The notes beneath the pieces are model-generated. The model made no database searches, was not told the origin of the DNA, and saw nothing but the letters and a program-made list of their open reading frames with translations. Of a DNA stretch of 64,000 nucleotides, positions 1 through 34,594 are shown piece by piece. The stretch is from a virus: the IMG/VR virus record IMGVR_UViG_3300025881_000002. The stretch is one strand, 5' to 3'. The translations under genes were made by a program, and so were the position numbers. Each line of letters starts with the position of its first letter. The stretch's first letter is position 1.

Positions 1-165
1 ATAATTCAATCATTTGGGTACACAATTCAATCATATAAGCTTTATTTCTTTTTTTTACCATTTTTAAGAAATATTTTCATAGTTTTATTATCATCTTGTA
101 ATTGAATTTCATCAATTTCACAATTCATATCTACAAATTGTCTTCCTATACCTTCTTTAATAATT

Positions 166-537
166 TCAACTCTTGTTACTTTTGTTGTTTTCATTATACC
201 ATTCTATAAATTTAATTACTACATAATAAACTGCTTCTAATTTAGATTTCATAATTACTTTTTCAGGACTTTCAGGAATGCATCCTGCTATAGCTCTAAA
301 AGTATCTTTTTGTTCTAAATATAAACTAAATTCACAATAATGAGAATTTATATTTATTTTAGGTAAAGTTGATTCATCTTCATATAAATATTCAATCTTT
401 TCAACAATTTGCATTAACCAATCCCATGATTTATGATATTTTAAATCATATTTATCAATAAAAAACTTATTATCATCAATTTTTAATTCAAACTTTCTAA
501 TAAGTTTATTACCATTTAATACAAAATTCTTCTCCAT
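166..537 (-). CDS. hypothetical protein
   Basis: 123-aa ORF. Its start overlaps the stop of the upstream UDG-like gene, so it is the distal member of the same minus-strand operon. No recognisable motif. Confidence 0.5.
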   Translation of the reverse strand: MEKNFVLNGNKLIRKFELKIDDNKFFIDKYDLKYHKSWDWLMQIVEKIEYLYEDESTLPKININSHYCEFSLYLEQKDTFRAIAGCIPESPEKVIMKSKLEAVYYVVIKFIEWYNENNKSNKS

Positions 538-1207
538 TATTTTCTCTTATTATATCATTAGCTTTTACAAAGTTATCACATTTCCAATCTGTTTTATTAT
601 GAGCTGAAGCTGCTGGATGTATTGCTTTTAATACATAACATTGTTTACTTAAATCATAAACATCAGTAGTTTCATATTTTTGAGCATTATTACCCCATAG
701 CATAACTATTAAACCTGGATTATTTTCACTAATAATTTTTAAAATTTGTTTAGTAAATCTATCCCATACTTTAAAATGAGAAGTAGGTTTATTACGAGTT
801 ACAGTTAAAGCTGTATTAAGTAATAAAACACCTTGATCTGCCCAATCTTCTAATGTTGGGTCAAAATCAAGATTAAATTCCTTATATACTTCTCTTTCTA
901 CAGATTCAATAATTTTTGTTAATGAAGGACTTGTTTTTAATATATAGTCTTTATTAGCAAAAGCTAAACCTGTAGCATTACCATCAAAGTAAGGATCTTG
1001 TCCTAATATTACAACTTTTATCTTCTTAGGATTACATAATTTAAAAGCTTTAAATACATCTTTTTTATCAGGGTATATTATCTTTTTATCATATTCATTC
1101 TGTAGATATTGTAATACTTTTTTCATATAAGGAGAAGATACAAGATCCCTTACTTCAGGGATCTTATACCATTCACCTAAGTGTTTAGTCCAATTCATTA
1201 ATTCCAA
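509..1207 (-). CDS. ung: family-1 uracil-DNA glycosylase-like protein with atypical motifs
   Basis: Collinear with E. coli/human UNG by eye: VVILGQDPYF (GQDPYH motif), GLAFA, GVLLLNTALTV (LLLN), MLWGNNAQ, and HPAASAH in place of HPSPLSAH. Confidence 0.8.
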   Translation of the reverse strand: MELMNWTKHLGEWYKIPEVRDLVSSPYMKKVLQYLQNEYDKKIIYPDKKDVFKAFKLCNPKKIKVVILGQDPYFDGNATGLAFANKDYILKTSPSLTKIIESVEREVYKEFNLDFDPTLEDWADQGVLLLNTALTVTRNKPTSHFKVWDRFTKQILKIISENNPGLIVMLWGNNAQKYETTDVYDLSKQCYVLKAIHPAASAHNKTDWKCDNFVKANDIIRENNGEEFCIKW

Positions 1208-2742
1208 AAATTATCTTTAGTTAAAGCTCCATACATAGAATCAAATTTAGCTTCATTTTTACCTAAATAATCTTTTTTAGCTTTAAGAGTTTCCATTATT
1301 TTAGTTCTTAAAGAATTATAAGATACATATCTTTCAATAATATCCTTAAATTTAAGAAGAGGTAATGATTTCTTAATAACATATTCTAATTTATTACTTG
1401 AAGATTTTAATTCTTTATACAAATCTGAAGTATTATCAGCTAGTTTATCAGAATTAATATTTACAAATTTAACAAATGTAGAACAGAATATTAAAAAATT
1501 AACTACTTTTTCAAATTCAAACGTTGGTGAATGTTGTCTAAATTCTAAAGTTTTCTTATTACCAAAAATTATAGGTACTAAATTTAACCAAGTATATCTA
1601 GAATGAATATTCCATTTAGATGTACCTTTAGGATCACTAGGATGCTTTTTAACTTTTTTAAGATCATTATTATAATTATCATAACTTCTACTGTCAGAAG
1701 CCATATAAAATAATCTAGCAAACTTTTCTTTTAAAGTTTTAGGTTCATTAATATTATCATGAACAGATTTAGCAATTTTTTTAGAATAATCTTTTTCTCT
1801 AGGATTATTATGATAACCTGTATTACCTCTTTTGTAAAAAGGTTGCATTTCAAATAATTCATCTTGTAAAAGATATCCTAAATTATAAGAAGCTAATATA
1901 GAATTTTCTTCTCTTTTAAGACCTCCTACGTGAATATGCAATGCACATTTTATATCAAATTTAGTACGCTTTTTAAGTTCTTCACAAATACCTTTTAAAG
2001 CATATAAACCTTTTTTACCAGATAAAGGTATAGTAACATATTCTAAACCGTCAATACTACCATCTCTTAAAGCTAAAACACCATATTTATAACATAATCT
2101 TTCAGCAACATAACCTGTAGAAGTTTCAAATTCTACACCAAAAGTAATTCCATTATCTTCTAACCAATCACCTAAAACATTTAACTGATTATTAGAGTAA
2201 TCTGGTTTAAAATGAGAATTAAATATATTTTTAGTTATCCCTTGAGAAAATCTACTATCATAAGGTAATCTTGATTTATTAATAATTTTATTACTAATTT
2301 CATTAAGAAACTTTGCTGTAATAGATGAATGTTTAGTACTATAAAAAATACCATCTCCTAAACGTTCTTTATATCCTAATTTTAAAGCTATTTCTTCAGA
2401 TATACAATGTAAATCTTTAGATACTTTATTAGGATCATCACGTAGAACAACATTTTCAACTAAATTAGGTGTATAAAAACCTATAATAGGTTCTTCATTA
2501 TTAATATCTACAATACCTGATTTTAAATGATTTTTATGAATTAAAACATATTTTTTTACATTATGATCATATTCTATAAGACCATTATTAAATCTATGAT
2601 ATTGATCTTCAATTTTATAGCATTCACCACTATCTTTTATTGAAACATCACCAACTAAATAATATTGACCTCTTATTCTTTTACAGTCTGATCTTTTTGC
2701 TTTTTTACCTGTAAAAGTTTTAATAATTCTGTTTTTATCCAT
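1198..2742 (-). CDS. Amidoligase_2-family (glutamine-synthetase-like fold) carboxylate-amine ligase
   Basis: Motifs FGVEFETS, LRDGSIDGLEYVTIP, CALHIHVGG and TLEFRQHSPT match the putative amidoligase family signature (E-x-E, H-x-H, EFR). Confidence 0.75.
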   Translation of the reverse strand: MDKNRIIKTFTGKKAKRSDCKRIRGQYYLVGDVSIKDSGECYKIEDQYHRFNNGLIEYDHNVKKYVLIHKNHLKSGIVDINNEEPIIGFYTPNLVENVVLRDDPNKVSKDLHCISEEIALKLGYKERLGDGIFYSTKHSSITAKFLNEISNKIINKSRLPYDSRFSQGITKNIFNSHFKPDYSNNQLNVLGDWLEDNGITFGVEFETSTGYVAERLCYKYGVLALRDGSIDGLEYVTIPLSGKKGLYALKGICEELKKRTKFDIKCALHIHVGGLKREENSILASYNLGYLLQDELFEMQPFYKRGNTGYHNNPREKDYSKKIAKSVHDNINEPKTLKEKFARLFYMASDSRSYDNYNNDLKKVKKHPSDPKGTSKWNIHSRYTWLNLVPIIFGNKKTLEFRQHSPTFEFEKVVNFLIFCSTFVKFVNINSDKLADNTSDLYKELKSSSNKLEYVIKKSLPLLKFKDIIERYVSYNSLRTKIMETLKAKKDYLGKNEAKFDSMYGALTKDNFWN

Positions 2743-2750
2743 TGTTATTA

Positions 2751-4589
2751 TTACACATTTTGATTAATAGAATTTACTGCTTCTGAAATTGGTTTTAAGC
2801 CATTTTCTAAAGTTTCTGTAAACTCTATAATCATATTAGTTAATTTACTATTTGACTTATACTCTTTTAATTCTTGTACGCTTTCTATAGCTGCGTCAAA
2901 ATTAGACATTACTTCAAATACAGTATCTATTTCATCTATACTACCTAATTCCATCATAGAATTAATTTCTTCTTCAAAAGTAGAATCTTCTACATCATCC
3001 TCTTCTTCATCTTCAAGTTTAGAAGAAGTTATAGAGGCGTTTTCAAAAATATCAAGAGTATTAAAATTAGCACTGTCATATTCTATCATTTCATCTTTTA
3101 AGGATGCTTTGGTTAATATACCATTATGGACAGTATAAACAACATAACTTCCAGCCATTATTATTTGACCACTAAACATTTTACTATCTTTAGTAATAGC
3201 TTGTTTAGCTCTTGTTATAACATCCTCTTTTTTTATCCTATCTAAATCAATAATAGGATGAACAGACATGTCAGAATAATCTTCAAATGTAGGTTCTTTT
3301 TTTCTAGCTAATGAAGGATTAAGACAAAACATATAGTCTTCTTCTGTTTCTAAAAGAACTCCATTATGAAAATAAAATAAATCTGCATCTTCGATATTTC
3401 CAAAATTGATATTTTCAGGCTGGGTTAAAGAAGAATCTAAAAAACTAAAATCTGATAATTTACTTTTAAGTTTATTAATATCATCTCCAATTTTAACATA
3501 ACCAATTTGATCTATAAATATGTGAATACCACTAACTCTTTTATTTTCAGAATCAAACCATCTTAGTTTGTTAAAGTTGATTTCTTGATACGTATTTTTA
3601 ATATATTTCTTTTCATAAAATAAATTATTTATAGCGTGATCATTAGTATTCATATCATCATTAGAATTTGAATCTAATGTTCTATTATAACCTATTCTAC
3701 TATTTGTAGTAGATTTTGGTTTAGTAGTATTAGCAAACTCTTTCTTTTTAGTTTCATAATAGTCAATAACATTACTTCTATCTATAACACATTTTTTAAC
3801 TATTTTACCAGCTTTTATCTCATAGATTCTATTAGGAGCAACTTCAAATATATTTTTTTTATCCTCTTCAACATTAATTATTGCTAATAATGAATCTTTT
3901 AAAGATGAAATATACATGCTACCATCATTCTCTTGCCAATAATATAAAGGTCTTTCGTCCCTTTCATAAGTATTAGTAAAAGTATCTTGTTTAGATTTAC
4001 CTCTAAATAAATACATAGTATCAGGGTTTTCAGAACTATGCATTAATAATGCAGCAGCACCATAATACTGTTCTAAAACTTTAATATTAGCATCATCTTT
4101 GGATATAATTTCTAATAATATTTGACTATCAATTTTACCAGTAGCATCAATTCCATATTCTCTAGCTATTTGATGATAATTTTTAAGTGTTCCATTATGA
4201 GCACCTATAAAATAACCTTCTTCACCATAATCAAATTTAAAAGGGTGAGCAGCAGAAATAGTATGTTTACCTACTGTAGCATGTCTAGTATGACCTATAA
4301 CTACTGTAGATTCTTTTGGATGAGGAGTTGTATTTTTGATTATATAATCTTGATATTCAGATATCACTCCAATACCTTTGTATAACTCACCATTTACAGC
4401 AACTCCACAAGAGTGTTTACCTCTCTCTACATTATACATACCTAATTTATCAAATTTATCTTTAGAAAATTTATCTGAGCTACTTCCTACCCATCCAAAT
4501 AAACCACAAGATAAAACTGATGAATTTTTATTCTTTCTTACGAGTAATAATACATAATGTATTAATATTAATATTAAGATTGTTTTCAT
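2751..4589 (-). CDS. class-II (Ntn) glutamine amidotransferase domain protein with about 300-aa unknown acidic C-terminal region
   Basis: SCGLFGW, RGKHSCGVA, IGHTRHATVG, AHNGTLKNY and DSQIL resemble the PurF/GlmS/AsnB Ntn-GATase motifs. The nucleophile Cys is preceded by a 27-residue hydrophobic leader, which may be a propeptide. Confidence 0.7.
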   Translation of the reverse strand: MKTILILILIHYVLLLVRKNKNSSVLSCGLFGWVGSSSDKFSKDKFDKLGMYNVERGKHSCGVAVNGELYKGIGVISEYQDYIIKNTTPHPKESTVVIGHTRHATVGKHTISAAHPFKFDYGEEGYFIGAHNGTLKNYHQIAREYGIDATGKIDSQILLEIISKDDANIKVLEQYYGAAALLMHSSENPDTMYLFRGKSKQDTFTNTYERDERPLYYWQENDGSMYISSLKDSLLAIINVEEDKKNIFEVAPNRIYEIKAGKIVKKCVIDRSNVIDYYETKKKEFANTTKPKSTTNSRIGYNRTLDSNSNDDMNTNDHAINNLFYEKKYIKNTYQEINFNKLRWFDSENKRVSGIHIFIDQIGYVKIGDDINKLKSKLSDFSFLDSSLTQPENINFGNIEDADLFYFHNGVLLETEEDYMFCLNPSLARKKEPTFEDYSDMSVHPIIDLDRIKKEDVITRAKQAITKDSKMFSGQIIMAGSYVVYTVHNGILTKASLKDEMIEYDSANFNTLDIFENASITSSKLEDEEEDDVEDSTFEEEINSMMELGSIDEIDTVFEVMSNFDAAIESVQELKEYKSNSKLTNMIIEFTETLENGLKPISEAVNSINQNV

Positions 4590-4599
4590 TTAATTTATT

Positions 4600-5418
4600 T
4601 TAAGCTAATTGTTTATCATTTAAGTTATTAAGAACTTTATCTAAGTTCTTTAAGTTAACAGTTTTGTCACTGTTTAAACATGATTCTACTAATTCTTTTA
4701 ATTCTTTATTAGTTTTCTTACTATTATTTGCAAATTCAATTGCTTTTAAGGTTCTATTCCATACATCAGTAATAGATTCTTCATTACGTAGAAAATAACC
4801 TCCTAGAGATCTACATTCTACTCCATAATCTTTATCTCTAGAATCACCAATTTTTCCATACAATAATCTACGATTATGCACATCTAAATCTTGATTAATT
4901 AAAGGTAAAGTAACAAACAGTTCAAAACAAAGTACTAATCTATCGTTAGTTTCTTCCTCAGGATATTCATAACCTATATGAATATGCATCCCAGCAGATC
5001 TTAAATTTCTATCTTCTTCTGATAATAATTCAATGTTGAGTTCAACTGATTGTTCATCTAAAACATTATAAGATGGTGAGCAACCAAATATATTTGCTTT
5101 CTCATCTTCTAATATCTTTTTAGTAGCTATTTCACTACTAGAATAATATAATTCCTTATCTAAAGGAGCTAAAATTGTTTCTATATAATTTTTAGAATGG
5201 TCTACTGATTTTAAGAACACTTCTAAATTGTTAGTAGGTGGAGTATTAAATTCAACAAGAATATTATCTTCTTGAACAAAACAACCTTTACCTATATCTA
5301 TAGGATTATCTTTCGTACCTTTAAAAAGATTAATTGCAGATGATAATTCACCTGATTTGTCTTTAATAAAAATTTCAGGATCTGATCCTATAAGTACATT
5401 TTTTATACTATAACTCAT
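4600..5418 (-). CDS. phiEco32-type COOH-NH2 ligase (GS/GCS2-like amidoligase)
   Basis: GSDPEIF near the N-terminus, then VEFNTPP, SAGMHIHIGY and GVECRSLGG. This pattern fits the phage COOH.NH2 ligase family. Confidence 0.65.
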   Translation of the reverse strand: MSYSIKNVLIGSDPEIFIKDKSGELSSAINLFKGTKDNPIDIGKGCFVQEDNILVEFNTPPTNNLEVFLKSVDHSKNYIETILAPLDKELYYSSSEIATKKILEDEKANIFGCSPSYNVLDEQSVELNIELLSEEDRNLRSAGMHIHIGYEYPEEETNDRLVLCFELFVTLPLINQDLDVHNRRLLYGKIGDSRDKDYGVECRSLGGYFLRNEESITDVWNRTLKAIEFANNSKKTNKELKELVESCLNSDKTVNLKNLDKVLNNLNDKQLA

Positions 5419-6088
5419 TTAATAATAATTTGTTTAATAATTCATAACTATATTCTTTAAAACCTTTACTTGAATAACTTCTTTCAGGATGACCTTGAAT
5501 AGCTAAAGATCTAGTATTTTTGTAATATACTATTTCTGGCTCTTTAAAATCTTTAGGCACTGGGAAATCTTTTCCTTCACCTGATTCATATCTAGTAGAT
5601 ATCTTTTTTAATGTAGTTCCTAATAATTTGTAATGTTTAGAATCTATATTATTAGGATACATCATTTGATGATGAGTAGATATTACATTAATAGTTTTAC
5701 CTTCAGATGTAATAATATTATGACTTGAAAGATGATTTGTTACATGTTGTATAACTTTACCTCCTGATAGAGCTGTTAATAATTGAGCACCCCTACAAAT
5801 ACCCATTTTAGGTATTGTAACAGGATATTTATTAAACATTACTGATTCAGTAATATCTCTTCTATTATTAACTCTAGTCATATGATGAATCTTATCTTCT
5901 TTATAGATATAAGGATTCACATCTTTACCTCCAGTAAATAATATTAAATCAATTCTAGCCAAAGGATATTTTTTATTAGGTCTATCTAAAAATGTACAAT
6001 TATATTTATCTTGAAAAAATCTTTGAACATCTATTGATAAATATTTTTTATTTGTTAGTATTACTAAATTTTTTTTAGGCTCTGTCAT
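5408..6088 (-). CDS. class-I glutamine amidotransferase / peptidase C26 (gamma-glutamyl hydrolase, PuuD-like)
   Basis: Cys-His-Glu triad context: MGICRGAQLL, THHQMM, AIQGHPE. Confidence 0.8.
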   Translation of the reverse strand: MTEPKKNLVILTNKKYLSIDVQRFFQDKYNCTFLDRPNKKYPLARIDLILFTGGKDVNPYIYKEDKIHHMTRVNNRRDITESVMFNKYPVTIPKMGICRGAQLLTALSGGKVIQHVTNHLSSHNIITSEGKTINVISTHHQMMYPNNIDSKHYKLLGTTLKKISTRYESGEGKDFPVPKDFKEPEIVYYKNTRSLAIQGHPERSYSSKGFKEYSYELLNKLLLNEL

Positions 6089-6977
6089 ATTTAAGTTTTA
6101 ACATTTTAGGAATTTCTTCTATATACTGTTTAGTAACAAAAGTTAATTCTTCTTGATTATCTCCAAAACTAGGTGCAGAGTTTATTTCAACAACTATAAA
6201 TTCAGAATAATCTCTTTTTCTATTTTTAGAATCAGTAGAAGATTGAATTCTTAAATCTACAGCTCCAAAATCGAGTCCAACAGCATTAAGGGCTTTAACA
6301 CTATGTAATACAACATCGTCCCAATTAACTGGTTTATCAAACAACCCAGTTTCTGAGTTTTCCATAATCCAAACGCAGTTATCATCGTTTCTATACCATT
6401 TTTTTTCATCTTCAGTTTCTCTTTTAAGCATTTTTCTACAAGTATAGAAGCAACCTTCACTATTTACATGAAGTCTATATTCTCTAGAGTAATTATAATA
6501 CTTTTCAAAAATATAAGATTTACAATTCTTACCTTTCATCCAAGCTTGCAATTCTTCAGGAGTATTATGTTTTGTATTACCTTTACCTCTACTACCAAAT
6601 AATGATTTAGAAATAATAGGATATTGAAGATCATTAATAGATAATATTAAATCTTCATTTGAATCCATTAATATAAAGTTAAGTTTTTCAGACCATAGGT
6701 AACCTACAGCTGTCTTAACTTTTCCTTTAACAAAACAACGTTTCATTCTTAACTTACTACTACTATTTCTAATAGCATCAATAGTATTAAGTTCAATTCT
6801 ATCACCTCCATTAGATACTGTATCAGATTGATCTGTAGTAGATCCTAATCTAATAATAGATTTAAATGGTAAAAGTGGTAGAGTTCTATTTTTTAACCTT
6901 AATATTGAATGAGAAGGATGTCTAGATCTAACCATAGGTCTAAACTTAGTGTAATTTTTCTTTTTAATTATAGTCAT
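6075..6977 (-). CDS. ATP-grasp ligase (RimK/glutathione-synthetase-like)
   Basis: PIISKSLFGSRGKGN (P-loop-like Gly-rich loop), YIFEKYYNYSREYRLHV, and FGAVDLRI...FIVVEINSAPSFG (Mg/ATP-binding E-x-N). Confidence 0.7.
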   Translation of the reverse strand: MTIIKKKNYTKFRPMVRSRHPSHSILRLKNRTLPLLPFKSIIRLGSTTDQSDTVSNGGDRIELNTIDAIRNSSSKLRMKRCFVKGKVKTAVGYLWSEKLNFILMDSNEDLILSINDLQYPIISKSLFGSRGKGNTKHNTPEELQAWMKGKNCKSYIFEKYYNYSREYRLHVNSEGCFYTCRKMLKRETEDEKKWYRNDDNCVWIMENSETGLFDKPVNWDDVVLHSVKALNAVGLDFGAVDLRIQSSTDSKNRKRDYSEFIVVEINSAPSFGDNQEELTFVTKQYIEEIPKMLKLKYDRA

Positions 6978-7420
6978 TTTAATAATTTTGTTAAGTTTTC
7001 TAAATTATATTCTGGTTCTCTAAAACCTTTTACCTTCATTTTATTTAAATTATTATGAGGTACAGAATTTAATTTTATTAAAAAAGGATATTTAATATCT
7101 CTACCGTGTGATTCCAATCTTATAACAGAATTATAAAAAACAAAACCTTGTCTATCTCCACAATATCTACCTGTTACATTAGAACTTAAAAGATATTTTT
7201 TAAGAATAGTAAAAAATCTTTTTTTAGTTAATGAAGAATAATAAGTTTTACAAACATTATATAAATCAATTATAGATCTTTGAAGAGAAATACAATGAGG
7301 TTGATTACACTCATAATTTTTATAAGTATATTGACATCCATATCTTCTACTTTCAAAAAACCATTTTATAAAATCTTTTATATATCTAGGTTTTTTTTCT
7401 ATTTTTACATATAATTTCAT
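6974..7420 (-). CDS. hypothetical protein (Cys-rich, basic) inside the ligase operon
   Basis: 148-aa ORF. Its stop overlaps the ATP-grasp start. No recognisable motif. Confidence 0.5.
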   Translation of the reverse strand: MKLYVKIEKKPRYIKDFIKWFFESRRYGCQYTYKNYECNQPHCISLQRSIIDLYNVCKTYYSSLTKKRFFTILKKYLLSSNVTGRYCGDRQGFVFYNSVIRLESHGRDIKYPFLIKLNSVPHNNLNKMKVKGFREPEYNLENLTKLLK

Positions 7421-7425
7421 TTATT

Positions 7426-7821
7426 TTAATATTTGTTTCTATAATCAGTATAATCACCTGATTCAATTAAAGTTGCATTACTAGCTCCATCGTGAAAATA
7501 TAATGAAGCTTCTATTTCTTCACCACCATCAAGTTCTACAGGTACAGGTTCTCTATAGTAACCTGTTTTAGAGGTATCTCCAGGTCTATAACCTTCAAGA
7601 CCATCTACTATAGGTAATTGTTCAGGAGTAACATCATACACTTCAACTTTAATCTTGCTAATAGGTTCTTTTGAATTTACAAAAGGTATCCCACTTGCTG
7701 TTAATTTATATTTATCTTTAGTCCATCCAGAATCAATAAGTTTTGAATTACCTAATACTCCGTGATTTCCATAACCTTCTCTTAATGTTCCGTAAACTGC
7801 TATTTTTATATTTTTATTCAT
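7426..7821 (-). CDS. gamma-glutamyl cyclotransferase (AIG2/GGCT-like)
   Basis: VYGTLREGYGNH N-terminal motif, VDGLEGY, and YYRE with a conserved Glu. Size is about 130 aa. Confidence 0.75.
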   Translation of the reverse strand: MNKNIKIAVYGTLREGYGNHGVLGNSKLIDSGWTKDKYKLTASGIPFVNSKEPISKIKVEVYDVTPEQLPIVDGLEGYRPGDTSKTGYYREPVPVELDGGEEIEASLYFHDGASNATLIESGDYTDYRNKY

Positions 7822-7823
7822 AT

Positions 7824-8906
7824 TTAATAAGGTAAATTGTCGTTAATTTTTAATTTTTTTAATTTTTCTGAAATTAAATCAGTTAATATCTTTTTTGCTT
7901 TTTCTTTCCCAAAATTTTTTACTAAATCACTAAAGTCTTTAGTTTTATATTTATCAGGTATTTTAATATTTATAATATTAAATTCATCACATAATTCTGA
8001 TGCAAATATCTGACCATAATTAGACTCTTTATCAAAATCATTATCATATAATATAAATATAGTTTCAAATCTTCTTTTTAATTCATTAACTACATTTATT
8101 TTAGGTTTTATTTTTTCATTTTGTAAAGATACCGATGCTAATCTACAAGTTTCATTTATAGACATTACATCTTTAAGAGATTTGGTCCAAATTAATATTT
8201 CATCAGACACAGGTAATTCTCTCCATCCTTGCCATATAGAAGTATTTACATCACTAAACCATTTATATTTACTAAAAGGTTGATATATTTTAAAAGTGGC
8301 TTCACCATCTTTGAATTCATAATAAGCATAAGAATATTTATCAGCTTTTACTGTTTTTTCTTTACTATTAGATTTAAATATAATATAGTCAACTGGAAAA
8401 ACATTATATTTTAAAAGTGTAATATGGTCTATACCAAAAGAATTCCAATATTTTATATCATAATCTTTCCAAGGTCTTACTGTAACACCTATTTTTACTT
8501 TATCATTTATTTTTACAGGTTTAGCACCTGTTTCAGGCTTATACTTTTTATATTCATTTTTAATAGAATTTTTACAATGATATATATTATCTAGCCAAAA
8601 ATCTACAGCTATTCTACTATATACATCAAACCAACTATTATATCCAAAATAATATTTTACAAATTGAAAAGCATCTCCTCCTCCCAATACAAAATCATTA
8701 TATAATATATCTCCAGTAGAATTTCTAAATAATGCAAAACTAGGTGTATTATCTTTTCTAAAAGGAGATGAAAAAGGTTCTTTTAATTTAATATCATTGT
8801 TAATATATTTTTTGAATATATCCCATTCAGTTATATTTTTTAATATTACTTCTCTACTTATAATTGGTTTATTTACATAAGGTAATTTATTCAAGTTTAT
8901 TTTCAT
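7824..8906 (-). CDS. DNA primase (Toprim domain, degenerate zinc-finger region)
   Basis: SPFRKDNTPSFALF resembles the CHC2 finger motif CPFHxEKTPSF but lacks the Cys residues. C-terminal Toprim signatures are LIWTKSLKD and ILYDNDFD (DxD). Confidence 0.7.
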   Translation of the reverse strand: MKINLNKLPYVNKPIISREVILKNITEWDIFKKYINNDIKLKEPFSSPFRKDNTPSFALFRNSTGDILYNDFVLGGGDAFQFVKYYFGYNSWFDVYSRIAVDFWLDNIYHCKNSIKNEYKKYKPETGAKPVKINDKVKIGVTVRPWKDYDIKYWNSFGIDHITLLKYNVFPVDYIIFKSNSKEKTVKADKYSYAYYEFKDGEATFKIYQPFSKYKWFSDVNTSIWQGWRELPVSDEILIWTKSLKDVMSINETCRLASVSLQNEKIKPKINVVNELKRRFETIFILYDNDFDKESNYGQIFASELCDEFNIINIKIPDKYKTKDFSDLVKNFGKEKAKKILTDLISEKLKKLKINDNLPY

Positions 8907-8916
8907 TTTTAGTTAA

Positions 8917-8946
8917 AGTAAAAAAGGGAGCTTTTACACTCCCTTC
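8917..8946 (-). terminator. rho-independent terminator
   Basis: On the minus strand: AAGGGAG-tgtaaaag-CTCCCTT followed by a T-run. It lies immediately downstream of the 8954 stop. Confidence 0.6.
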
Positions 8947-8953
8947 TATTATA

Positions 8954-9565
8954 TTACCAATCTATTTCATCACTTGATGGTAGATCAGCTGAAGTCTCTT
9001 CAAAAGAAGTTTCTTCCACTCTTGACATTAAGTCATCATACTGAGATTTATCAGAGTTTGAATTTACAGCAACTTTAAGTTTTGTAAATTCATCTGAAGA
9101 ATCTACAGCTTCAACAAAATTAATTTTTCTAACATTAAGATACTGACTAGGATAACCTTTTGTACCATAATTAACAAATACATTTACTTTACCTGTTTTA
9201 GAAGCTTCAGCAATTTGTTTCATTAAGAAATCAACAGCTGGTTTATAATCTTCAAATTCAGGAAGTTCTTTACCTATTAAAGAAGGGTTAATAGCATGTA
9301 GTAAATTTACTAATCTTGACAATGCAAATTTAGGATTACCTTTTCCACTATCATCTGGATAGTAAATACCATCATTTACTTCACCTCCATTATTATCTAC
9401 ATAGAATATTTTATATGGTGGTGCATTTTCTTTCTCTTCTGCTGTTCTTTTAGCAACACGTACTCTTACGTCTTTTACTCTACCAGCAATTCCTTCATTA
9501 AAGATAGGTTTTCTATCTTCATCATTGTTATTATTTTGTTGTGAAATTTCATTTAAATTTATCAT
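8954..9565 (-). CDS. possible ssDNA-binding protein (T7 gp2.5-like logic)
   Basis: Sits between the ATPase and primase genes. Has an acidic C-terminal tail ending in an aromatic residue (SADLPSSDEIDW). No direct motif match. Confidence 0.35.
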   Translation of the reverse strand: MINLNEISQQNNNNDEDRKPIFNEGIAGRVKDVRVRVAKRTAEEKENAPPYKIFYVDNNGGEVNDGIYYPDDSGKGNPKFALSRLVNLLHAINPSLIGKELPEFEDYKPAVDFLMKQIAEASKTGKVNVFVNYGTKGYPSQYLNVRKINFVEAVDSSDEFTKLKVAVNSNSDKSQYDDLMSRVEETSFEETSADLPSSDEIDW

Positions 9566-28440: not shown

Positions 28441-28544
28441 ATAGACAGTATTAAAGATGTATTGGTTAGATATAAATCTAAATGCTAGGGAATAGCATGC
28501 CTAAAATATTAGGTAAATACATCTTTAATGCTAATACTGTCTAC
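28441..28544. repeat. long imperfect inverted repeat (about 23-bp arms) forming a roughly 100-nt hairpin
   Basis: ATAGACAGTATTAAAGATGTATT ... AATACATCTTTAATGCTAATACTGTCTAC, with an inner ATGCTA/TAGCAT hairpin. It lies just upstream of the 28411 start. Confidence 0.6.
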
Positions 28545-28846
28545 TTCGCCAATGGATAATATTTGTGTGCCTCTCTATGGTCTTTAGCACTACTAAACTA
28601 TCTTAAACGCCTTCACTGTACGAGGTGAGCCTGCTCAAGTTTAAGTTAAAATGTTACCCTACATTAATAGTTTAATATACTAAGCAAAAGTTAATTCTCT
28701 CTTTTGTTTAGTAATTCTTTCTAAACTTCTTATATGTTTTAAATTATTAATCATTATTTTATGATTTTTAATTCTACAAGAAGAAGCTAAAAATATTTTA
28801 CGTTGTAATCTTGTTCTTTTACTCATAATTAGTTGGTTTTAATTAG

Positions 28847-29398
28847 TGGAGGCGGCGGGATTCGAACCCGCGTGTCTCATACTTAAATTATAATATTATT
28901 TACAGCTTTTTAATTTTTTAATGTGCTTTTCTGCACGTAGGATCAATCTTAATTGATACTCCACCACTTATTTTAATCTAAATAAGAAATCTTAGAATAC
29001 ATTACCAAAAGGTAATAAAAAATATATCATACAGTTCTCCTTACTATTTCTAGTTAGTGTGTTTAGTTACATCTCCAGCTTAAAAGGCTGGGCTATCAGT
29101 ATTAGAAGCTTACTTGTAACATCAAGGTTTCTGTGATATATTTATGCATAACGGTTACTACAAACCTTTTTTCACCTATGATATTATGCTACCATTGCTA
29201 ATTTATCTCCATACCAAGAACTACCTTGTAGTACTGGTTCAGAGTTTAGAATGTTGTGAACAACATTCATATTAGCTTCAATCTGTGCAGTTTCCTGCGT
29301 CTTATTAATGTTTCCATTTATAAAATTCACCTATGTTTACAGTTGTCTCTGGCTGAATATTATAATGTATAATACAAGGTCAAGCCCAAGTCGCCCCC
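28847..29398 (-). ncRNA. ssrA: tmRNA (ssrA), complete, unusually long
   Basis: 5' end GGGGGCGACUUGGGCUUGACC. 3' end GCGGGUUCGAAUCCCGC-CGCCUCC-A. The acceptor stem pairs with a G3.U70 wobble (Ala identity). An internal open frame ends ...GDKLAMVA-UAA. Confidence 0.85.
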
Positions 29399-29527
29399 TT
29401 TTTTATTATTAAATGTATAAAAATACATCATCTTCTTCTACATCAATAGTTTCATCTCTTGAATGTAAGTCTTCATTTAAATCTTCATAAATATTTTCTA
29501 ATAATATTGTTTTCATCTTTGTTGGTT

Positions 29528-30922: not shown

Positions 30923-31567
30923 TTATAAGTTTTCTTTAATCCAATCATCAAACCCATTCCAAGTAGGTCCAAATCTTTCATCGAACATGATTCTACATAA
31001 ATTAATTACTTCTTCTCTACTCCAACTATCTTTTACAGGTTTAATTGTAATAGTATTGTGAAAATCTGTTTTAAGTTTATATCTTTGAAATGCATAATCT
31101 ACATACTTAATATCTAATTCATATTCAACTAACACTTTATCAATACCACTTTGTTCACAAAATGCTTTAATAAAGTTATGTGATGGTTGAGGTAAAGTTT
31201 CTTTTTTAGGATTACTAGATAAACAATCTATCATATTACCAGTAGTTAAAGATTTATCTGTTGTAGCAATTATTTTTTTATCTACCAAATGATGTGTTCC
31301 TCTTCTTATGTTTCTAATAATACTATTATCGGAAATTCTATAAAACCAATCACCTTCTTTAATTTCATCATTTGATGTTATGTAAAGATGTTGAGGTTGC
31401 ACCTTACTTATTAAAAGTGCTTTATCATTACTTATTATTCTTAATTCTGTACCTCCCTTAATACTAGGGCTAATGCATATATTACCATTTACTCTATCTT
31501 CAGTAGGTAACATTACTACATTACATTCTTTGAAGTATTTACTTTCTTTTTCTATTAAACGTGACAT
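30923..31567 (-). CDS. hypothetical protein
   Basis: 214-aa ORF. Confidence 0.55.
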   Translation of the reverse strand: MSRLIEKESKYFKECNVVMLPTEDRVNGNICISPSIKGGTELRIISNDKALLISKVQPQHLYITSNDEIKEGDWFYRISDNSIIRNIRRGTHHLVDKKIIATTDKSLTTGNMIDCLSSNPKKETLPQPSHNFIKAFCEQSGIDKVLVEYELDIKYVDYAFQRYKLKTDFHNTITIKPVKDSWSREEVINLCRIMFDERFGPTWNGFDDWIKENL

Positions 31568-31686
31568 AAGTTCTTAGTTTTTATATTTAATTTAGTACAT
31601 ATTCCAATTTTATAATATGGACATACATCCCATTTAAAATTACAATTTTTACAAACATCTTTTGGTTTTTCTTTTAACTGTGACAT
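31555..31686 (-). CDS. possible small Cys-rich protein
   Basis: 43-aa ORF (MSQLKEKPKDVCKNCNFKWDVCPYYKIGICTK...) overlapping the start of the 30923-31567 gene. Below the ORF-track cutoff. Confidence 0.3.
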   Translation of the reverse strand: MSQLKEKPKDVCKNCNFKWDVCPYYKIGICTKLNIKTKNLCHV

Positions 31687-31713
31687 TTGTTCTTTAGTTT
31701 TAAGTTAGTTAAT

Positions 31714-31863
31714 TTACCATCCTGGGTCAAAGTCATCCCATTTTTCTTCATCTACGTCATTTAATCCCACAACATCATCTTGTGATGTATTATTTCCACT
31801 AGAACAATTAGGATAAGTACAATGGTTAACATATCCTGTTTTACACGGTGCGCATTTATTCAT
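31714..31863 (-). CDS. possible small Cys-rich acidic protein
   Basis: 49-aa ORF (MNKCAPCKTGYVNHCTYPNCSS...EEKWDDFDPGW). Below the ORF-track cutoff. Confidence 0.3.
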   Translation of the reverse strand: MNKCAPCKTGYVNHCTYPNCSSGNNTSQDDVVGLNDVDEEKWDDFDPGW

Positions 31864-31901
31864 AATATTTAATTTTAAGTTAATACAATTAGTATAAGCT
31901 A

Positions 31902-32564
31902 TTACTCTTTAAATCTTTTAGATTTATCATATATTTCTACTGACCAACCTTTATGTGTTTTAGCATTACCTATTATTAAATTAGTAATACTTCCATTAAG
32001 AAATTTATATTTATTTTTAAAATCTCTTTTGGTTACTCCTTCTTCAATAATACCTTCTTTATGTTTAAAAGTATATAATAACATTTTATTTAAGTCAGAG
32101 TACCAATTTTTAACATGAGTTTGTTTATTTTTTAAAACTCTATGCACTGCTGATTTATCAAGCTTATATTTTAATATAAAGTCTGATATTATAAGTTTTT
32201 CTACAATACCTGAAATATGATAGAATTTATATTCTTTTTTATCAGCTTTAAAGTGGTTTATTCCCCTCATAGTTTTTCTACCTCCTGGTAATAGATTATA
32301 ACCTTTTGATGAAGTAGATTTGTATCTCGATATATAAAAAGATTCTCTATCATCTAATAACTGAACATCACATAATTCTATTAATTTAATTTTAAATTTT
32401 GATATGCCATGTTTTCTAATACTATTAAATAAAAATCCTTTTTTACCATTTTTAGCATCATTTTTATGTCTTCTAAATCTAACTTTTAAAGATTGTATAG
32501 TTTGACCTACATAAATCTTTTTTGTAATTATATTAGTGATTTTATATATTTTTCCTTTCCTCAT
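31902..32564 (-). CDS. free-standing GIY-YIG homing endonuclease
   Basis: GKIYKITN...KIYVGQT...RFRRHKND...NSIRKHG...RESFYI...GYNLLPGG. The start is taken at MRKGKIY. No split host gene is detectable in the flanks. Confidence 0.8.
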   Translation of the reverse strand: MRKGKIYKITNIITKKIYVGQTIQSLKVRFRRHKNDAKNGKKGFLFNSIRKHGISKFKIKLIELCDVQLLDDRESFYISRYKSTSSKGYNLLPGGRKTMRGINHFKADKKEYKFYHISGIVEKLIISDFILKYKLDKSAVHRVLKNKQTHVKNWYSDLNKMLLYTFKHKEGIIEEGVTKRDFKNKYKFLNGSITNLIIGNAKTHKGWSVEIYDKSKRFKE

Positions 32565-32639
32565 TATCTTTTCAATTTTTATACAATTAGCAATCAATAT
32601 TTGATTGGACTACTACGCTACATTAAAGCTTGTATTATG

Positions 32640-33363
32640 TAGTAGATTTTAGAGATTAAGATTAATTCTATTGATATGTATCAATTCGTACACCTATAAC
32701 TTTACGTTAAAGAATTAATTTTAATGTAACTTAATCTCTTGGAATTTCAACCTTAATTAAATAAAGCATTAAGCATACACTTCTGCATTTTAATGGACTC
32801 AAATGACCAACTTTATTTAATTTATTAGCACCATCTATAATAACTACAACTTACTGGGAAGTATTAAGCTATGTCATTCACTAGCTATTATTATAAATGG
32901 TCACCAGATAATTCCCCATTGGTCTAGTATGACCAAGACTGTTATCCCTTGCTGTGAAATCCTAAGTGTATTTGTGTAAAATCAAACCGTTATCTTTACA
33001 CACCCAAAAGCTCTATACGAGTGTTATATTAGGTTTATTTAAGGTATATTTATTCCAACATATCACATACAGTTGGTACACTTGATAGATTTAATATGTA
33101 AATATACTCTGGCTATTACTCCTAAGTTTTCTATACAACTAAGTACTTCATTACAATTTATATTCTATCTTTCTTTAGTGTGAATAGTGTTTATACTATT
33201 CTTTAATCACAAGGTTTCAAGATTTAACCTTTATTTTAAAAACTCTCACAAGATTCAATCTTGAAGTGCAGTACTACACGTTTAATAACTTCAATAATGT
33301 GGTTGCACCCACAATAATTACCTCATTATTATACCTTTTGGATGAGAGTTTAATCTTTTTAAT
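32640..33363. ncRNA. candidate large structured non-coding RNA (family unknown)
   Basis: About 720 nt with no ORF of 60 aa or more on either strand, and visibly less AT-rich than other spacers. Nested helices include AGAGATTAAG/CTTAATCTCT enclosing ATTAATTCT/AGAATTAAT plus two hairpins (32651-32740); TGTGTAAA/TTTACACA; GAATAGT/ACTATTC; AAGGTT/AACCTT; CAAGAT/ATCTTG; and AAACTCTCA/TGAGAGTTT spanning about 100 nt. Confidence 0.45.
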
Positions 33364-33392
33364 TCAAAAACCCTTGCTATTTCTAACAAGGG
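33364..33392 (-). terminator. rho-independent terminator
   Basis: Minus strand reads CCCUUG-uuagaaauag-CAAGGG followed by UUUUUG. It lies downstream of gene 33506-33742. Confidence 0.55.
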
Positions 33393-33505
33393 ATTTATCA
33401 ACCAACTAATTTAAACCAAACCATTTTTCTTTATGAAAATTAAAAAATGATTGATTACACATCAAGAACGTAACTAACTACTATGGATGTGATACAATGT
33501 TGTAG

Positions 33506-33742
33506 CTAATTTATATTATAATAAGGTTTATTTAGAATAACATCTAATATTATAGTTAAACAAACTATAAATCCTCCTATTAATACTAATGGTAATAATG
33601 ATAAAGATATTATTACATCCATCATCATTATAACACCACATATTAATATACCTATGAATGAAATATTAAAACTATACTTACGTAGTATATATTTTAATTT
33701 ATTAATAGTTTTATTCTGTAAATATTTGAGCGAATACTTCAT
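33506..33742 (-). CDS. small membrane protein
   Basis: 78-aa ORF with hydrophobic core ISFIGILICGVIMMMDVIISLSLLPLVLIGGFIVCLTIILDVIL. Confidence 0.5.
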   Translation of the reverse strand: MKYSLKYLQNKTINKLKYILRKYSFNISFIGILICGVIMMMDVIISLSLLPLVLIGGFIVCLTIILDVILNKPYYNIN

Positions 33743-34146
33743 TTGTTTCTATTATGTTAATTGATTTATAATCAGTTTCTAAGAATTCTTTAAAGGTTTT
33801 TCTGTTATCTTCTTCATAACCTATAACTTTAATTGTTTTCATTGGTTTCATAGTTTATAGTTATTTAGTTAATAAAAAAGCAACTACACTTTTAACAATT
33901 GACAGTTTTTTCATACTGCAAGCTCTTGATTATTAAGTCAAGGATGTTTATTACACTAAATTGTTTATCCTCATAATATAATACACCAAGTATTATACCG
34001 ACATAGTTGCTTTTAACAATTTATTAATTAATCAAAAAAACACAATAAAGTTTTGATTATTACCATACTCTGCATTTTTATAAACAGACTTGTAACTGTC
34101 TTAGGTTGCATTATGGTGCTACTTTTTAAGAAGTAGCTAAACTTAA

Positions 34147-34365
34147 TTAATCGTTCCAATTATGAATTATATACTTTGTAATTAATACAAATAATATAAA
34201 TAATATTCCAATTATTGATAAACCTACCATTATACTAAAAAATGTTTCTTCTTGAAAAGGATTACCATTGTTTAATATATAGTAAGTATCTAATGCTATT
34301 ATTAACAATAATAATATAATAAATACTTTCTTACCTTTACCTAATTGTTTAATTTGTTTTATCAT
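34147..34365 (-). CDS. small membrane protein (two TM helices)
   Basis: 72-aa ORF: VFIILLLLIIALDTYYIL and FFSIMVGLSIIGILFILFVLI. Confidence 0.5.
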   Translation of the reverse strand: MIKQIKQLGKGKKVFIILLLLIIALDTYYILNNGNPFQEETFFSIMVGLSIIGILFILFVLITKYIIHNWND

Positions 34366-34366
34366 A

Positions 34367-34594
34367 TTACCAGTTATATTTTATCCATATTAATAACTTT
34401 ATTATTGAGTAACGTATTAAAGCTATTGTACCAGCTATTAAAATTACATAAGAGGTAACACCTAAAATTAATATAGGTAAATCTTTAATATCTTCACTAT
34501 CATTTGGTATATTATGAAATAATAGTATAAGTTTAAATAAACCTAGTACTATACATATTATACAAATAAATGCTACACTTTTACCTTTACTCAT
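34367..34594 (-). CDS. small membrane protein (two TM helices)
   Basis: 75-aa ORF, 1 nt upstream of the next gene. Confidence 0.5.
   Translation of the reverse strand: MSKGKSVAFICIICIVLGLFKLILLFHNIPNDSEDIKDLPILILGVTSYVILIAGTIALIRYSIIKLLIWIKYNW

What the first reader, a model, noticed from the sequence alone, without database searches (positions are those of the whole stretch)
32600..33400. About 0.75-kb ORF-free, helix-dense region: candidate large ornate ncRNA
There is no ORF of 60 aa or more on either strand for about 900 nt. The sequence is less AT-rich than ordinary spacers here. It holds many nested complementary segments. One is a four-helix module at 32651-32740: 10-bp and 9-bp stacked stems enclosing two hairpins. 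Another is a multi-helix junction closed by AAACUCUCA/UGAGAGUUU at about 33241-33355. At least five further 6-8-bp hairpins are present. The region begins just after a terminator (33364-33392) and ends at the promoter region of a free-standing GIY-YIG gene. Large structured RNAs of unknown function (GOLLD, ROOL and similar) are known to reside in phages and prophages near tRNA genes, and this window's tRNA/tmRNA cluster is a few kb away.
Basis: seen in the sequence. Interest (0 to 1): 0.7.

Follow-up and report, generated by a model that had tools for sequence, protein, structure and literature searches.

The report
New phage structured RNA, tmRNA-linked
The ORF-free stretch is a real gene for a large folded non-coding RNA. 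It belongs to a previously undescribed RNA family found almost only in phages and often placed directly in front of phage tmRNA genes; its relative in Cellulophaga phage phi14:2 is already known to be very abundant during infection, but its function is unknown.

Summary
Observation confirmed; interpretation supported. Window 32604-33350, minus strand, is an ORF-free, helix-rich region that encodes a modular non-coding RNA.

- **Core.** The core (32825-33230) has stems P1, P2, P4 and P5, a pseudoknot between the P2 loop and an almost invariant strand (GGGAGUUCUCAGCAAG; window AGGAUUUCACAGCAAG), and a GCUAA tail.
- **Family membership.** A covariance model built without the window hits 32941-33087(-) at 41 bits, E about 6e-7.
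- **Family size and range.** I found at least 94 distinct members. One 19-mer occurs in 101 IMG/VR contigs but only 2 contigs among 185,579 species genomes. No Rfam 15 family matches.
- **Structure support.** 97.6% and 93.6% of cells are paired in two subfamily alignments (shuffles 83-85%, slid controls about 40%). 19/27 and 13/29 pairs show compensatory changes.
- **Expression.** The homologous region of phi14:2 (g004-g005 junction) is a published, abundant, persistent lncRNA of unknown function.
- **New linkage.** 15 of 91 members have a tmRNA gene starting within 200 nt downstream on the same strand, three of them only 4-7 nt away. The window's own tmRNA lies 3.2 kb downstream.
- **Mobile elements.** Homing endonuclease genes repeatedly sit in or beside the RNA gene; here it is a GIY-YIG gene.

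The mechanism is inferred: a stable trans-acting RNA of the phage translation and RNA-processing toolkit.

The parts
33371..33392 (-). Intrinsic terminator of the upstream 78-aa gene. It marks the upstream limit of the non-coding region.
   Evidence: a 9-bp stem followed by UUUUU; the only terminator-like site in 31500-34500.
33241..33350 (-). Upstream module M0. It is a multi-helix element closed by AACUCUCA/UGAGAGUU and followed by UUUUU. It is conserved, but in relatives it is not always adjacent to the RNA core.
   Evidence: The same closing stem and flanks occur in L134 (1829-1940). In L005 (1183-1315) the stem is AACUCUUA/UAAGAGUU, a compensatory change.
33207..33230 (-). 5' motif AGGUUAAAUCUUGAAACCUUGUGA. 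Its ACCU is the proposed 5' strand of a second pseudoknot, pairing with AGG at the start of the conserved strand.
   Evidence: The motif is shared with L130, phi14:2, L005 and L141. In type A relatives CCC pairs with GGG; this becomes UCC:GGA in L140, L141 and L142, and CCU:AGG in the window. The pairing is tentative.
33084..33206 (-). Expanded P0 domain, a variable peripheral region. In minimal relatives it is a 7-bp hairpin with a GUAA loop.
   Evidence: P0 in minimal forms. (78.7% identity to L130 1878-2017).
33055..33083 (-). P1 5' strand (AAGUG) followed by the P2 hairpin CCAAC-UGUAUGUGAUAU-GUUGG. The loop segment UGUGA is the pseudoknot strand.
   Evidence: 19 of 20 identity to the family motif, unique in the window; covariance-model alignment; pair counts.
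32969..33054 (-). P3, a variable insert between P2 and the P1 3' strand.
   Evidence: Relatives have inserts of 0-100 nt at this position.
32948..32968 (-). P1 3' strand (CACUU) plus the conserved strand AGGAUUUCACAGCAAG. UCACA pairs with the P2 loop to form pseudoknot PK1.
   Evidence: The family has UGAGA:UCUCA; the window and L130 have UGUGA:UCACA, a change on both sides.
32905..32948 (-). P4 hairpin (GGAUAA ... UUAUCU).
   Evidence: P4 covaries across the family: GUAGUUA/UAACUAC, GUAACUA/UAGUUAU, GAGAUAA/UUAUCUC, GAUAUUA/AAAUAUC.
32825..32904 (-). GUGA linker, the long P5 hairpin (base ACCAU/AUGGU) and the invariant GCUAA tail. This is the 3' end of the family core.
   Evidence: unique match, 0 expected; the P5 base CCCU/AGGG becomes CCAU/AUGG; in L136 a terminator follows GCUAAGG; in other loci a tmRNA 5' end follows 4-7 nt later.
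32604..32824 (-). Lineage-specific 3' domain. It contains the motif AAGGUUGAAAUUCCAAG (32730-32754), a 10-bp stem (32651-32660 with 32731-32740) around a variable insert of about 70 nt, the strand AAAAUCUACUACAUAAUACAA, and a terminal hairpin CUACUAC...GUAGUAG.
   Evidence: Blocks of 25 and 30 nt are identical in phi14:2. The domain is also present in L130, L131 and L135. Supporting variation: a G-U variant of the stem in L131, and an inner hairpin that reads GCU/AGC, ACC/GGU or UCC/GGA.
32573..32591 (-). Motif GCUAAUUGUAUAAAAAUUG, which follows the RNA in all 3'-domain relatives. It is repeated after the GIY-YIG gene (31879-31895), and probably marks the insertion point of the endonuclease gene.
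31902..32564 (-). Free-standing GIY-YIG homing endonuclease gene immediately 3' of the RNA.
   Evidence: Homing endonuclease genes also flank or interrupt the RNA gene in L130, L142, L143, L144 and L153.

Best explanation
Window 32604-33230 (minus strand), probably together with the upstream module at 33241-33350, is the gene for a stable, highly structured non-coding RNA. It belongs to a phage-restricted family that has not been described as a family.

**Architecture of the family core.**
- A 5' motif and a P0 hairpin.
- P1 enclosing the P2 hairpin. Five to six nucleotides of the P2 loop (UGAGA; UGUGA in the window) pair with the conserved strand GGGAGUUCUCAGCAAG to form a pseudoknot.
- P4, a GUGA linker, the long P5 hairpin and a GCUAA tail.
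- The variable stems P0, P3, P4 and P5 carry all the length differences between members.
- The window copy adds a large P0 domain and a 220-nt 3' domain that it shares with phage phi14:2.

**Proposed mode of action (inferred).** The RNA is transcribed in the direction of the surrounding genes. It accumulates as a stable RNA through infection, as shown for phi14:2, and acts in trans through its compact pseudoknotted core. I infer this from its recurrent position at the head of tmRNA or tRNA genes. On that basis it belongs to the phage's translation and stable-RNA toolkit, for example by binding a component of the trans-translation or RNA-processing machinery. Where a tmRNA or tRNA follows directly, its 3' end would be set by RNase P cleavage of that downstream RNA.

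**What is shown and what is not.** Shown: homology, the fold, the strand, the phage-only distribution, the tmRNA linkage, and expression in phi14:2. Not shown: the molecular partner and the activity.
For: **Homology and expression.** Phi14:2 positions 2905-3589 align with the window region, including identical blocks of 25 and 30 nt. That interval is the g004-g005 junction. It is reported as transcribed rightward above the level of most genes, from the earliest time point and without later decline (bioRxiv 10.1101/2020.03.07.982082).

**Family membership.** Covariance model R1 was built from 13 members, excluding the window. It hits 32941-33087(-) at 41.0 bits, E 5.9e-7, and the next best hit scores 16.5 bits.

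**Fold.**
- Type A alignment: 97.6% of cells paired against 82.7% in shuffles; 19 of 27 pairs have changes on both sides; 0 of 500 shuffles reach this; slid controls give 36-45%.
- Type B alignment: 93.6% paired against 84.7%; all 11 pairs of P1 and P2 are compensatory.

**Strand.** G-U-only variation falls on the modelled strand. Gene orientation and the direction of transcription in phi14:2 agree.

**Distribution.** The 19-mer occurs in 101 IMG/VR contigs, in 2 contigs among 185,579 species genomes, and in only phi14:2 among 50,697 GenBank phage records. There are 94 distinct members, mostly 200-350 nt long. No Rfam family matches.

**tmRNA linkage.** 15 of 91 members have a same-strand tmRNA starting within 200 nt downstream, 17 of 91 within 1 kb, and gaps of 4-7 nt occur in L183, L186 and L217. 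Both the window and phi14:2 also carry a tmRNA.
Against: - No transcript data exist for the window's own phage.
- The function is inferred only from gene neighbourhood. More than 80% of members have no tmRNA within 1 kb, and many are followed directly by unrelated protein genes.
- A sequence-only profile finds the window core only weakly: E 0.004, and only with the filters off.
- The skeleton alignments used for pair counting were cut and registered by hand around invariant anchors, so they lean towards the proposed structure.
- The second pseudoknot rests on four sequences and is not supported in type B.
- The ends of the mature RNA are not mapped. Whether the module at 33241-33350 and the 3' domain are part of one RNA with the core is not shown.
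Confidence: 0.6

Rival explanations
1. The core is a self-cleaving or otherwise catalytic RNA. On this reading its job is to process polycistronic early transcripts, for example by separating itself from the downstream tmRNA, tRNA or mRNA, or from upstream homing-endonuclease mRNAs.
For: - The core is compact and pseudoknotted, with near-invariant junction nucleotides and freely variable peripheral stems.
- Conservation begins and ends abruptly, at the 5' motif and at GCUAA.
- The context is phage DNA rich in homing endonuclease genes. Ribozyme-like matches occur nearby: a twister-P1-like match at 34062-34117 in the window and a RAGATH-1-hammerhead-like match in L142.
Against: - No known ribozyme family matches.
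- Where a tmRNA follows, RNase P alone would already define the junction.
- In phi14:2 the whole junction region accumulates as abundant RNA. That is equally expected for a non-catalytic stable RNA.
- No cleavage site can be inferred from sequence.
Confidence: 0.15
2. The RNA is an accessory or derived part of the phage tmRNA system. Examples would be a detached pseudoknot domain of a split or permuted tmRNA, or a leader that assists tmRNA folding or maturation.
For: - In L140 and L134 the core sits immediately 5' of a permuted tmRNA. The coding piece of that tmRNA ends right after the tag, so the pseudoknots that usually follow the tag are missing there.
- Gaps of only 4-7 nt to standard tmRNAs occur in L183, L186 and L217.
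Against: - Most members have no adjacent tmRNA.
- In the window and in phi14:2 the two RNAs are 3.2 kb and 0.67 kb apart, and the tmRNAs there are full length, 554 and 470 nt.
- tmRNA models do not match the core.
Confidence: 0.12
3. The RNA is a cis-regulatory leader, such as a riboswitch or attenuator, that controls the downstream gene. In the window that gene would be the GIY-YIG homing endonuclease.
For: - It lies upstream of the endonuclease gene in the window.
- In L136 and L161, and from the same sequences also L220 and L235, a terminator-like hairpin follows GCUAA.
Against: - Downstream genes are unrelated across members: ThyX-like, lipoproteins, small hypothetical proteins, tmRNA, tRNA.
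- With only 4-7 nt before the tmRNA in some loci, there is no room for an expression platform.
- The endonuclease gene is upstream of the RNA or inside it in other loci.
- The transcript is abundant and persistent in phi14:2.
Confidence: 0.06
4. The region is not an RNA gene at all. It could be a decayed protein-coding gene or a DNA-level element such as a homing-endonuclease target, an origin of replication or an array of promoters.
For: - Homing endonuclease genes cluster here.
- The 5' strand of P5 (GUGACCCUACUCUUAU) is conserved at the sequence level beyond what pairing alone needs, which could reflect an endonuclease recognition site.
Against: - Compensatory base-pair changes and strand-specific G-U pairs argue for an RNA-level constraint.
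- There is no conserved reading frame.
- The homologous region in phi14:2 is an abundant transcript.
Confidence: 0.03

Closest known systems
Phi14:2 'long non-coding RNA' of the g004-g005 junction (Drobysheva et al., bioRxiv 10.1101/2020.03.07.982082; published in Nature 2021, the latter from my own knowledge)
   Same: It is a true homologue. It shares the core (P4, P5, the conserved strand, the GCUAA tail) and the 3' domain, including identical blocks of 25 and 30 nt. It lies on the same strand relative to neighbouring genes and in the same gene neighbourhood (g004-family protein, tmRNA).
   Different: - The paper reports only the abundance and timing of the transcript. It defines no family, structure or tmRNA linkage.
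- Phi14:2 has the type B 5' half (P2 loop CUUGAGAAA), whereas the window has type A (UGUAUGUGAUAU).
- Gene order differs. In phi14:2 the g004 gene is upstream of the RNA. In the window it is downstream, with a GIY-YIG gene inserted between.
GOLLD and ROOL, large ornate RNAs of phages and prophages
   Same: They are also large, multi-domain, strongly structured RNAs of unknown function, carried by phages and often close to tRNA genes. This characterisation is from my own knowledge of the published families and was not tested here.
   Different: - There is no sequence or structure match to any Rfam 15 model.
- The conserved core here is much smaller, as short as about 142-165 nt in minimal members.
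- The linkage here is to tmRNA.
- The family is virtually absent from bacterial genomes.
tmRNA (SsrA), including the permuted two-piece form
   Same: It is co-located with the RNA and probably co-transcribed with it in many members. Both are pseudoknot-rich stable RNAs, and both regions are abundant in phi14:2.
   Different: The core has no tRNA-like domain, no tag reading frame, and no match to tmRNA models.
Pseudoknotted ribozymes and riboswitch cores (HDV-like, twister, glmS)
   Same: They share the architectural logic: a compact pseudoknotted core with invariant junction nucleotides and dispensable peripheral stems. This is my own knowledge of those families set against the fold supported.
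   Different: No model matches, no cleavage site or ligand is known, and the resemblance is generic.

Membership tests
New family defined here (homologues of the phi14:2 g004-g005 RNA) | P1 enclosing the P2 hairpin, with a conserved loop containing UGAGA, followed by the strand GGGAGUUCUCAGCAAG. | tested here: met
   Covariance model R1, built without the window, hits 32941-33087(-) at 41.0 bits, E 5.9e-7, with all 10 pairs formed. The P2 motif has 1 mismatch and is unique in the window.
New family defined here (homologues of the phi14:2 g004-g005 RNA) | Pseudoknot between the P2 loop and the conserved strand. | tested here: met
   The window has UGUGA:UCACA where the family has UGAGA:UCUCA. 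The central pair is AU in 16 sequences and UA in 2, the window and L130.
New family defined here (homologues of the phi14:2 g004-g005 RNA) | P4 hairpin, GUGA linker, long P5 hairpin with base ACCCU/AGGGU, and a 3' GCUAA tail. | tested here: met
   The pattern GTGACC...GGTGCTAA is unique at 32825-32904, with 0 matches expected. P4 and the P5 base pair with compensatory changes.
New family defined here (homologues of the phi14:2 g004-g005 RNA) | Accumulates as an abundant stable transcript during infection. | not testable with these tools
   This is shown only for phi14:2. No expression data exist for the window's phage.
GOLLD / ROOL / HEARO / OLE large RNAs | Match to the family covariance model (Rfam 15). 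| tested here: not met
   No match in 31500-34500 even at E <= 10, none at gathering score in the whole window, and none in relatives.
Group I / group II intron carrying a homing endonuclease gene | Match to the intron covariance model, and flanking exons of an interrupted gene. | tested here: not met
   No intron model matches in the region, although the same search detects group I introns in L143. The flanks are a terminator and separate complete genes, not split exons.
tmRNA | tRNA-like domain (acceptor stem plus T-arm) and a tag reading frame. | tested here: not met
   ARAGORN and Rfam find no tmRNA features in 32600-33400. The window's tmRNA lies elsewhere, at 28846-29399.
Riboswitch / cis-regulatory leader | Consistent class of downstream regulated genes, and an expression platform. 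| tested here: not met
   Downstream genes are heterogeneous. In three loci a tmRNA starts 4-7 nt after the core.
Known small self-cleaving ribozymes (twister, hammerhead, HDV-like, pistol, hatchet) | Match to a family model; self-cleavage activity. | tested here: inconclusive
   No model matches within the RNA, so it is not a member of a known class. Catalytic activity as such cannot be tested with these tools.

The most novel reading that the evidence does not exclude
The RNA is a new functional class: either a ribozyme, or an RNA that binds the ribosome, SmpB or RNase P. On this reading it works together with phage-encoded tmRNA and tRNAs to take over or protect host translation and ribosome rescue during infection. 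That would make it a previously unknown RNA component of trans-translation biology, and one that is widespread in uncultivated phages related to the crAss-like phage phi14:2.
Probability: 0.2. Interest if true: 0.9.

Novelty: new variant of a known kind. Interest (0 to 1): 0.75.

Why it matters
- **It explains a published unknown.** A transcript reported as unexplained in the model crAss-like phage phi14:2 becomes a defined RNA family. The family has a testable fold, at least 94 distinct members, and minimal versions of about 142-165 nt that suit biochemistry and structural work.
- **It resolves the second phi14:2 transcript.** The second unexplained phi14:2 'lncRNA' turns out to be a tmRNA. 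The first is repeatedly fused to the front of phage tmRNA genes.
- **It suggests where to look for function.** That linkage gives a concrete, testable lead: trans-translation, RNase P processing, or translation takeover. For large phage RNAs such leads have been hard to obtain.
- **Experiments are possible now.** Phi14:2 and its Cellulophaga host are cultivable, so genetics and pull-downs can be done.

Tried and rejected
- **Exact scans with the 3'-domain blocks.** IMG/VR returned only phi14:2. The single metagenome scan gave one 1-kb contig.
- **A 17-mer genome scan.** It returned 120 loci, all of them chance matches in coding sequence. L010-L129 are noise, as are L154-L156.
- **The protein route through the neighbouring g004-family gene.** It did yield bridging homologues (L130, L131, L134). 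The protein itself gave no functional clue: no Pfam match, a PHROG of unknown function, a confident AlphaFold model (pLDDT 88), and no PDB fold match (best E 0.06, TM about 0.15).
- **nhmmer with default filters.** It missed the window entirely. With the filters off the window core is the top hit, but only at E 0.004.
- **MAFFT on full-length members.** It misaligned the variable stems, so I used anchor-cut skeleton alignments. A full-length covariance model would have exceeded the calibration limit.
- **My first assignment of P1 and P2 in phi14:2.** It was wrong and I replaced it once type B members were seen.
- **A second pseudoknot in type B (CAU:AUG).** Four variants break it without compensation.
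- **Complementarity of the UGCUAA tail to UUAGCA in the tmRNA tag region.** It is seen by eye in the window and in phi14:2 (sequences). Other phage tmRNAs have different tag codons, so I treated it as chance.
- **Literature.** Searches found no description of the family beyond the phi14:2 paper. No supplementary tables were held.
Full report
**Observation.** Genes between about 23.9 and 36.4 kb of the window run on the minus strand.
- Between the stop codon of a 78-aa gene (33506) and the start of a GIY-YIG gene (ATG at 32564; an upstream TTG at 32597) there is no ORF of 60 aa or more on either strand.
- The stretch is richer in G+C (0.26-0.335) than its flanks (0.19-0.25).
- It folds more stably than dinucleotide shuffles on both strands, z = -3.6 and -4.2.
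- An intrinsic terminator lies at 33371-33392 on the minus strand.
- The downstream gene is a GIY-YIG homing endonuclease.
- Rfam 15 finds only two tRNAs in the whole window at gathering score. Inside the region it finds nothing even at E <= 10.

**Homology to a known transcript.** A sensitive BLAST search against GenBank phages found one short match, in an unannotated part of Cellulophaga phage phi14:2, a crAss-like phage.
- Aligning the two regions showed identical blocks of 25 and 30 nt. These flank a stem whose roughly 70-nt interior has diverged completely.
- The phi14:2 region spans 2905-3589, between g004 and the former g005.
- Drobysheva et al. reported that this junction and the next one (g005-g006) are transcribed rightward at higher levels than most protein genes. 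Transcription starts at the earliest time point and does not decline later. The authors called both 'long non-coding RNAs' of unknown function.
- ARAGORN and Rfam show that the second of these is a 470-nt tmRNA.
- The first is the homologue of the finding. The phi14:2 RNA strand corresponds to the window's minus strand.

**Finding the family.**
- Exact scans with the 3' blocks found almost nothing new.
- The neighbouring g004-family protein led to bridging loci L130, L131 and L134.
- Those loci exposed further conserved motifs. Scans with these motifs recovered more loci.
- A 19-mer spanning the conserved strand and P4 occurs in 101 IMG/VR contigs. In contrast it occurs in only two contigs, both Clostridium sp. 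MAG contigs, among 185,579 species genomes.
- Among 50,697 GenBank phage records only phi14:2 carries it.
- In the held loci there are 94 distinct members, mostly 200-350 nt long and as short as about 142-165 nt.
- None matches any Rfam family.

**Architecture of the core, 5' to 3'.**
- A short 5' motif.
- P0, which in minimal members is a 7-bp hairpin with a GUAA loop.
- P1, enclosing the P2 hairpin and an optional P3 insert.
- The near-invariant strand GGGAGUUCUCAGCAAG.
- P4, then CGUGA, then the long P5 hairpin, then UGCUAA.
- The P2 loop has two forms: UGUAUGAGAUAU (type A, 17 members, including the window) and CUUGAGAAA (type B, 66 members, including phi14:2). Both contain UGAGA, which is complementary to UCUCA in the conserved strand, giving a pseudoknot.

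**Covariation.** I cut the variable loops at invariant anchors to obtain gap-free alignments and counted pairs.
- Type A (18 sequences): 97.6% of cells paired, against 82.7% in column shuffles and 36-45% when partners are slid. 19 of 27 pairs have changes on both sides, and 0 of 500 shuffles reach the observed values.
- Type B (50 sequences, including several mis-registered rows left in): 93.6% against 84.7%. All 11 pairs of P1 and P2 show compensatory changes, and slid controls give 36-44%.
- The pseudoknot changes on both sides in the window and in L130, UGUGA:UCACA.
- Variation that keeps pairing only through G-U falls on this strand: the P4 3' strand in type B, P1 in L143, and the 3'-domain stem in L131. 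This fixes the RNA strand.
- These alignments were registered by hand and therefore lean towards the structure. The anchors themselves are unambiguous.
- A possible second pseudoknot (ACCC in the 5' motif with GGG of the conserved strand) is compensated in L140, L141 and L142 (UCC:GGA) and in the window (CCU:AGG). It is not supported in type B.

**Is the window copy a member?**
- A sequence-only profile built without it gives only E 0.004, although this is the top hit in the window and lies at the right place and strand.
- A covariance model of the type A 5' half, built from 13 other members, hits 32941-33087(-) at 41.0 bits, E about 6e-7. All modelled pairs form, and the next best hit scores 16.5 bits.
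- The P2 motif and the P5 pattern are each unique in the window, with 0.01 and 0 matches expected by chance.
- Coordinates of all elements are given under 'parts'.

**Domains beyond the core.**
- The window RNA has an enlarged P0 domain, shared with L130.
- It has a 220-nt 3' domain shared with phi14:2, L130, L131 and L135.
- Upstream lies a separate module (33241-33350) closed by AACUCUCA/UGAGAGUU. It recurs in L134, and in L005 with a compensatory change, but in those loci it is not adjacent to the core.

**Context.**
- The most informative result is the position relative to tmRNA. Of 91 members with at least 450 nt of downstream sequence, 15 have a same-strand tmRNA starting within 200 nt and 17 within 1 kb. 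Of the 18 same-strand tmRNAs in these loci, 15 are in that position.
- In L183, L186 and L217 only 4-7 nt separate GCUAA from the tmRNA 5' end. In L140 and L134 a permuted tmRNA follows directly. Others are followed by long-arm tRNA-like sequences, by terminators or by unrelated protein genes.
- The window has its own tmRNA at 28846-29399, minus strand, 3.2 kb downstream.
- Homing endonuclease genes are recurrent neighbours. GIY-YIG sits after the RNA here. An HNH gene lies inside a duplicated copy in L130. An endonuclease-like ORF lies between duplicated P5 segments in L144. HNH-like ORFs end just before the RNA in L142, L143 and L153.
- In the window the motif CUAAUUGUAU occurs on both sides of the GIY-YIG gene, consistent with insertion of that gene next to the RNA.
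- A g004-family protein of unknown fold is near the RNA in at least six loci.

**Interpretation.**
- Shown: a conserved, pseudoknotted RNA gene on the minus strand; a member of a large family that is virtually confined to phages; a homologue that is an abundant, persistent transcript; and frequent location at the head of tmRNA or tRNA genes.
- Inferred: it acts in trans as a stable RNA of the phage's translation and RNA-processing toolkit. Where a tmRNA or tRNA follows, RNase P would define its 3' end.
- Disfavoured: the riboswitch, intron, tmRNA-fragment, decayed-gene and DNA-element readings, for the reasons listed under the rival explanations.
- Not excluded: a catalytic role.

**Novelty.** The existence of the phi14:2 transcript was published. 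The family, its fold, its distribution and its tmRNA linkage appear to be undescribed in Rfam 15 and in the searchable literature. It is a new class within the known kind 'large structured phage RNAs of unknown function'.

Noticed in passing
window 28846-29399 (minus strand): A 554-nt phage tmRNA. Its 5' end reads GGGGGCGACUUGGGCUUGAC, its T-arm is GCGGGUUCGAAUCCCGCC followed by GCCUCCA, and its tag ends ...GDKLAMVA*. ARAGORN missed it. Rfam scores it at 24.5 bits, below the gathering score of 47, but as a full-length match with E 2e-7.
   Followed up: partly
window 34062-34117 (minus strand), inside the ORF-free stretch 33743-34146: A twister-P1-like match at 39.3 bits (gathering score 67.2), E 2e-6, spanning the full model but with one hairpin deleted. 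It may be a variant self-cleaving ribozyme about 0.7 kb upstream of the RNA.
   Followed up: no
window 32573-32591 and 31879-31895 (minus strand): The motif CUAAUUGUAU(U)AA occurs on both sides of the GIY-YIG gene. It also follows the RNA in phi14:2, L130, L131 and L135. This looks like duplication of the target site when the endonuclease gene inserted, or a promoter or leader element.
   Followed up: partly
L003 (phi14:2) 4031-4500: The second 'long non-coding RNA' of phi14:2 (g005-g006 junction) is a standard tmRNA with tag GSSVQKLAMVA*. No tmRNA feature appears in the RefSeq features listed for 1-9000.
   Followed up: yes
window 28442-28544 (minus strand): A long, near-perfect inverted repeat lies about 300 nt 3' of the tmRNA. 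Rfam reported it only as a spurious snoR41 match. Its role is unknown.
   Followed up: no
L130 1788-2040 and 2982-3480; L144 7620-8506; L149 4-91 and 133-378; L146 and L250 (same 100-kb contig): The RNA gene is partly duplicated around inserted homing-endonuclease ORFs in L130 and L144. It is present in two copies in L149 and in the MAG contig NZ_JBNMNU010000001.1.
   Followed up: partly
window 30923-31567 (minus strand) and relatives: The g004-family protein (PHROG 15656, over 3,000 homologues) is encoded next to the RNA in the window, phi14:2, L134, L140, L141 and L144. It also occurs in unrelated Cellulophaga phages. Its AlphaFold model is confident, but no fold match was found.
   Followed up: partly
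L143 6157-8860; L142 612-675: L143 carries several group I intron matches, two of them above the gathering score. L142 has a RAGATH-1-hammerhead-like match at 50 bits (gathering score 56.3). These phages appear to be rich in ribozymes and mobile elements.
   Followed up: no
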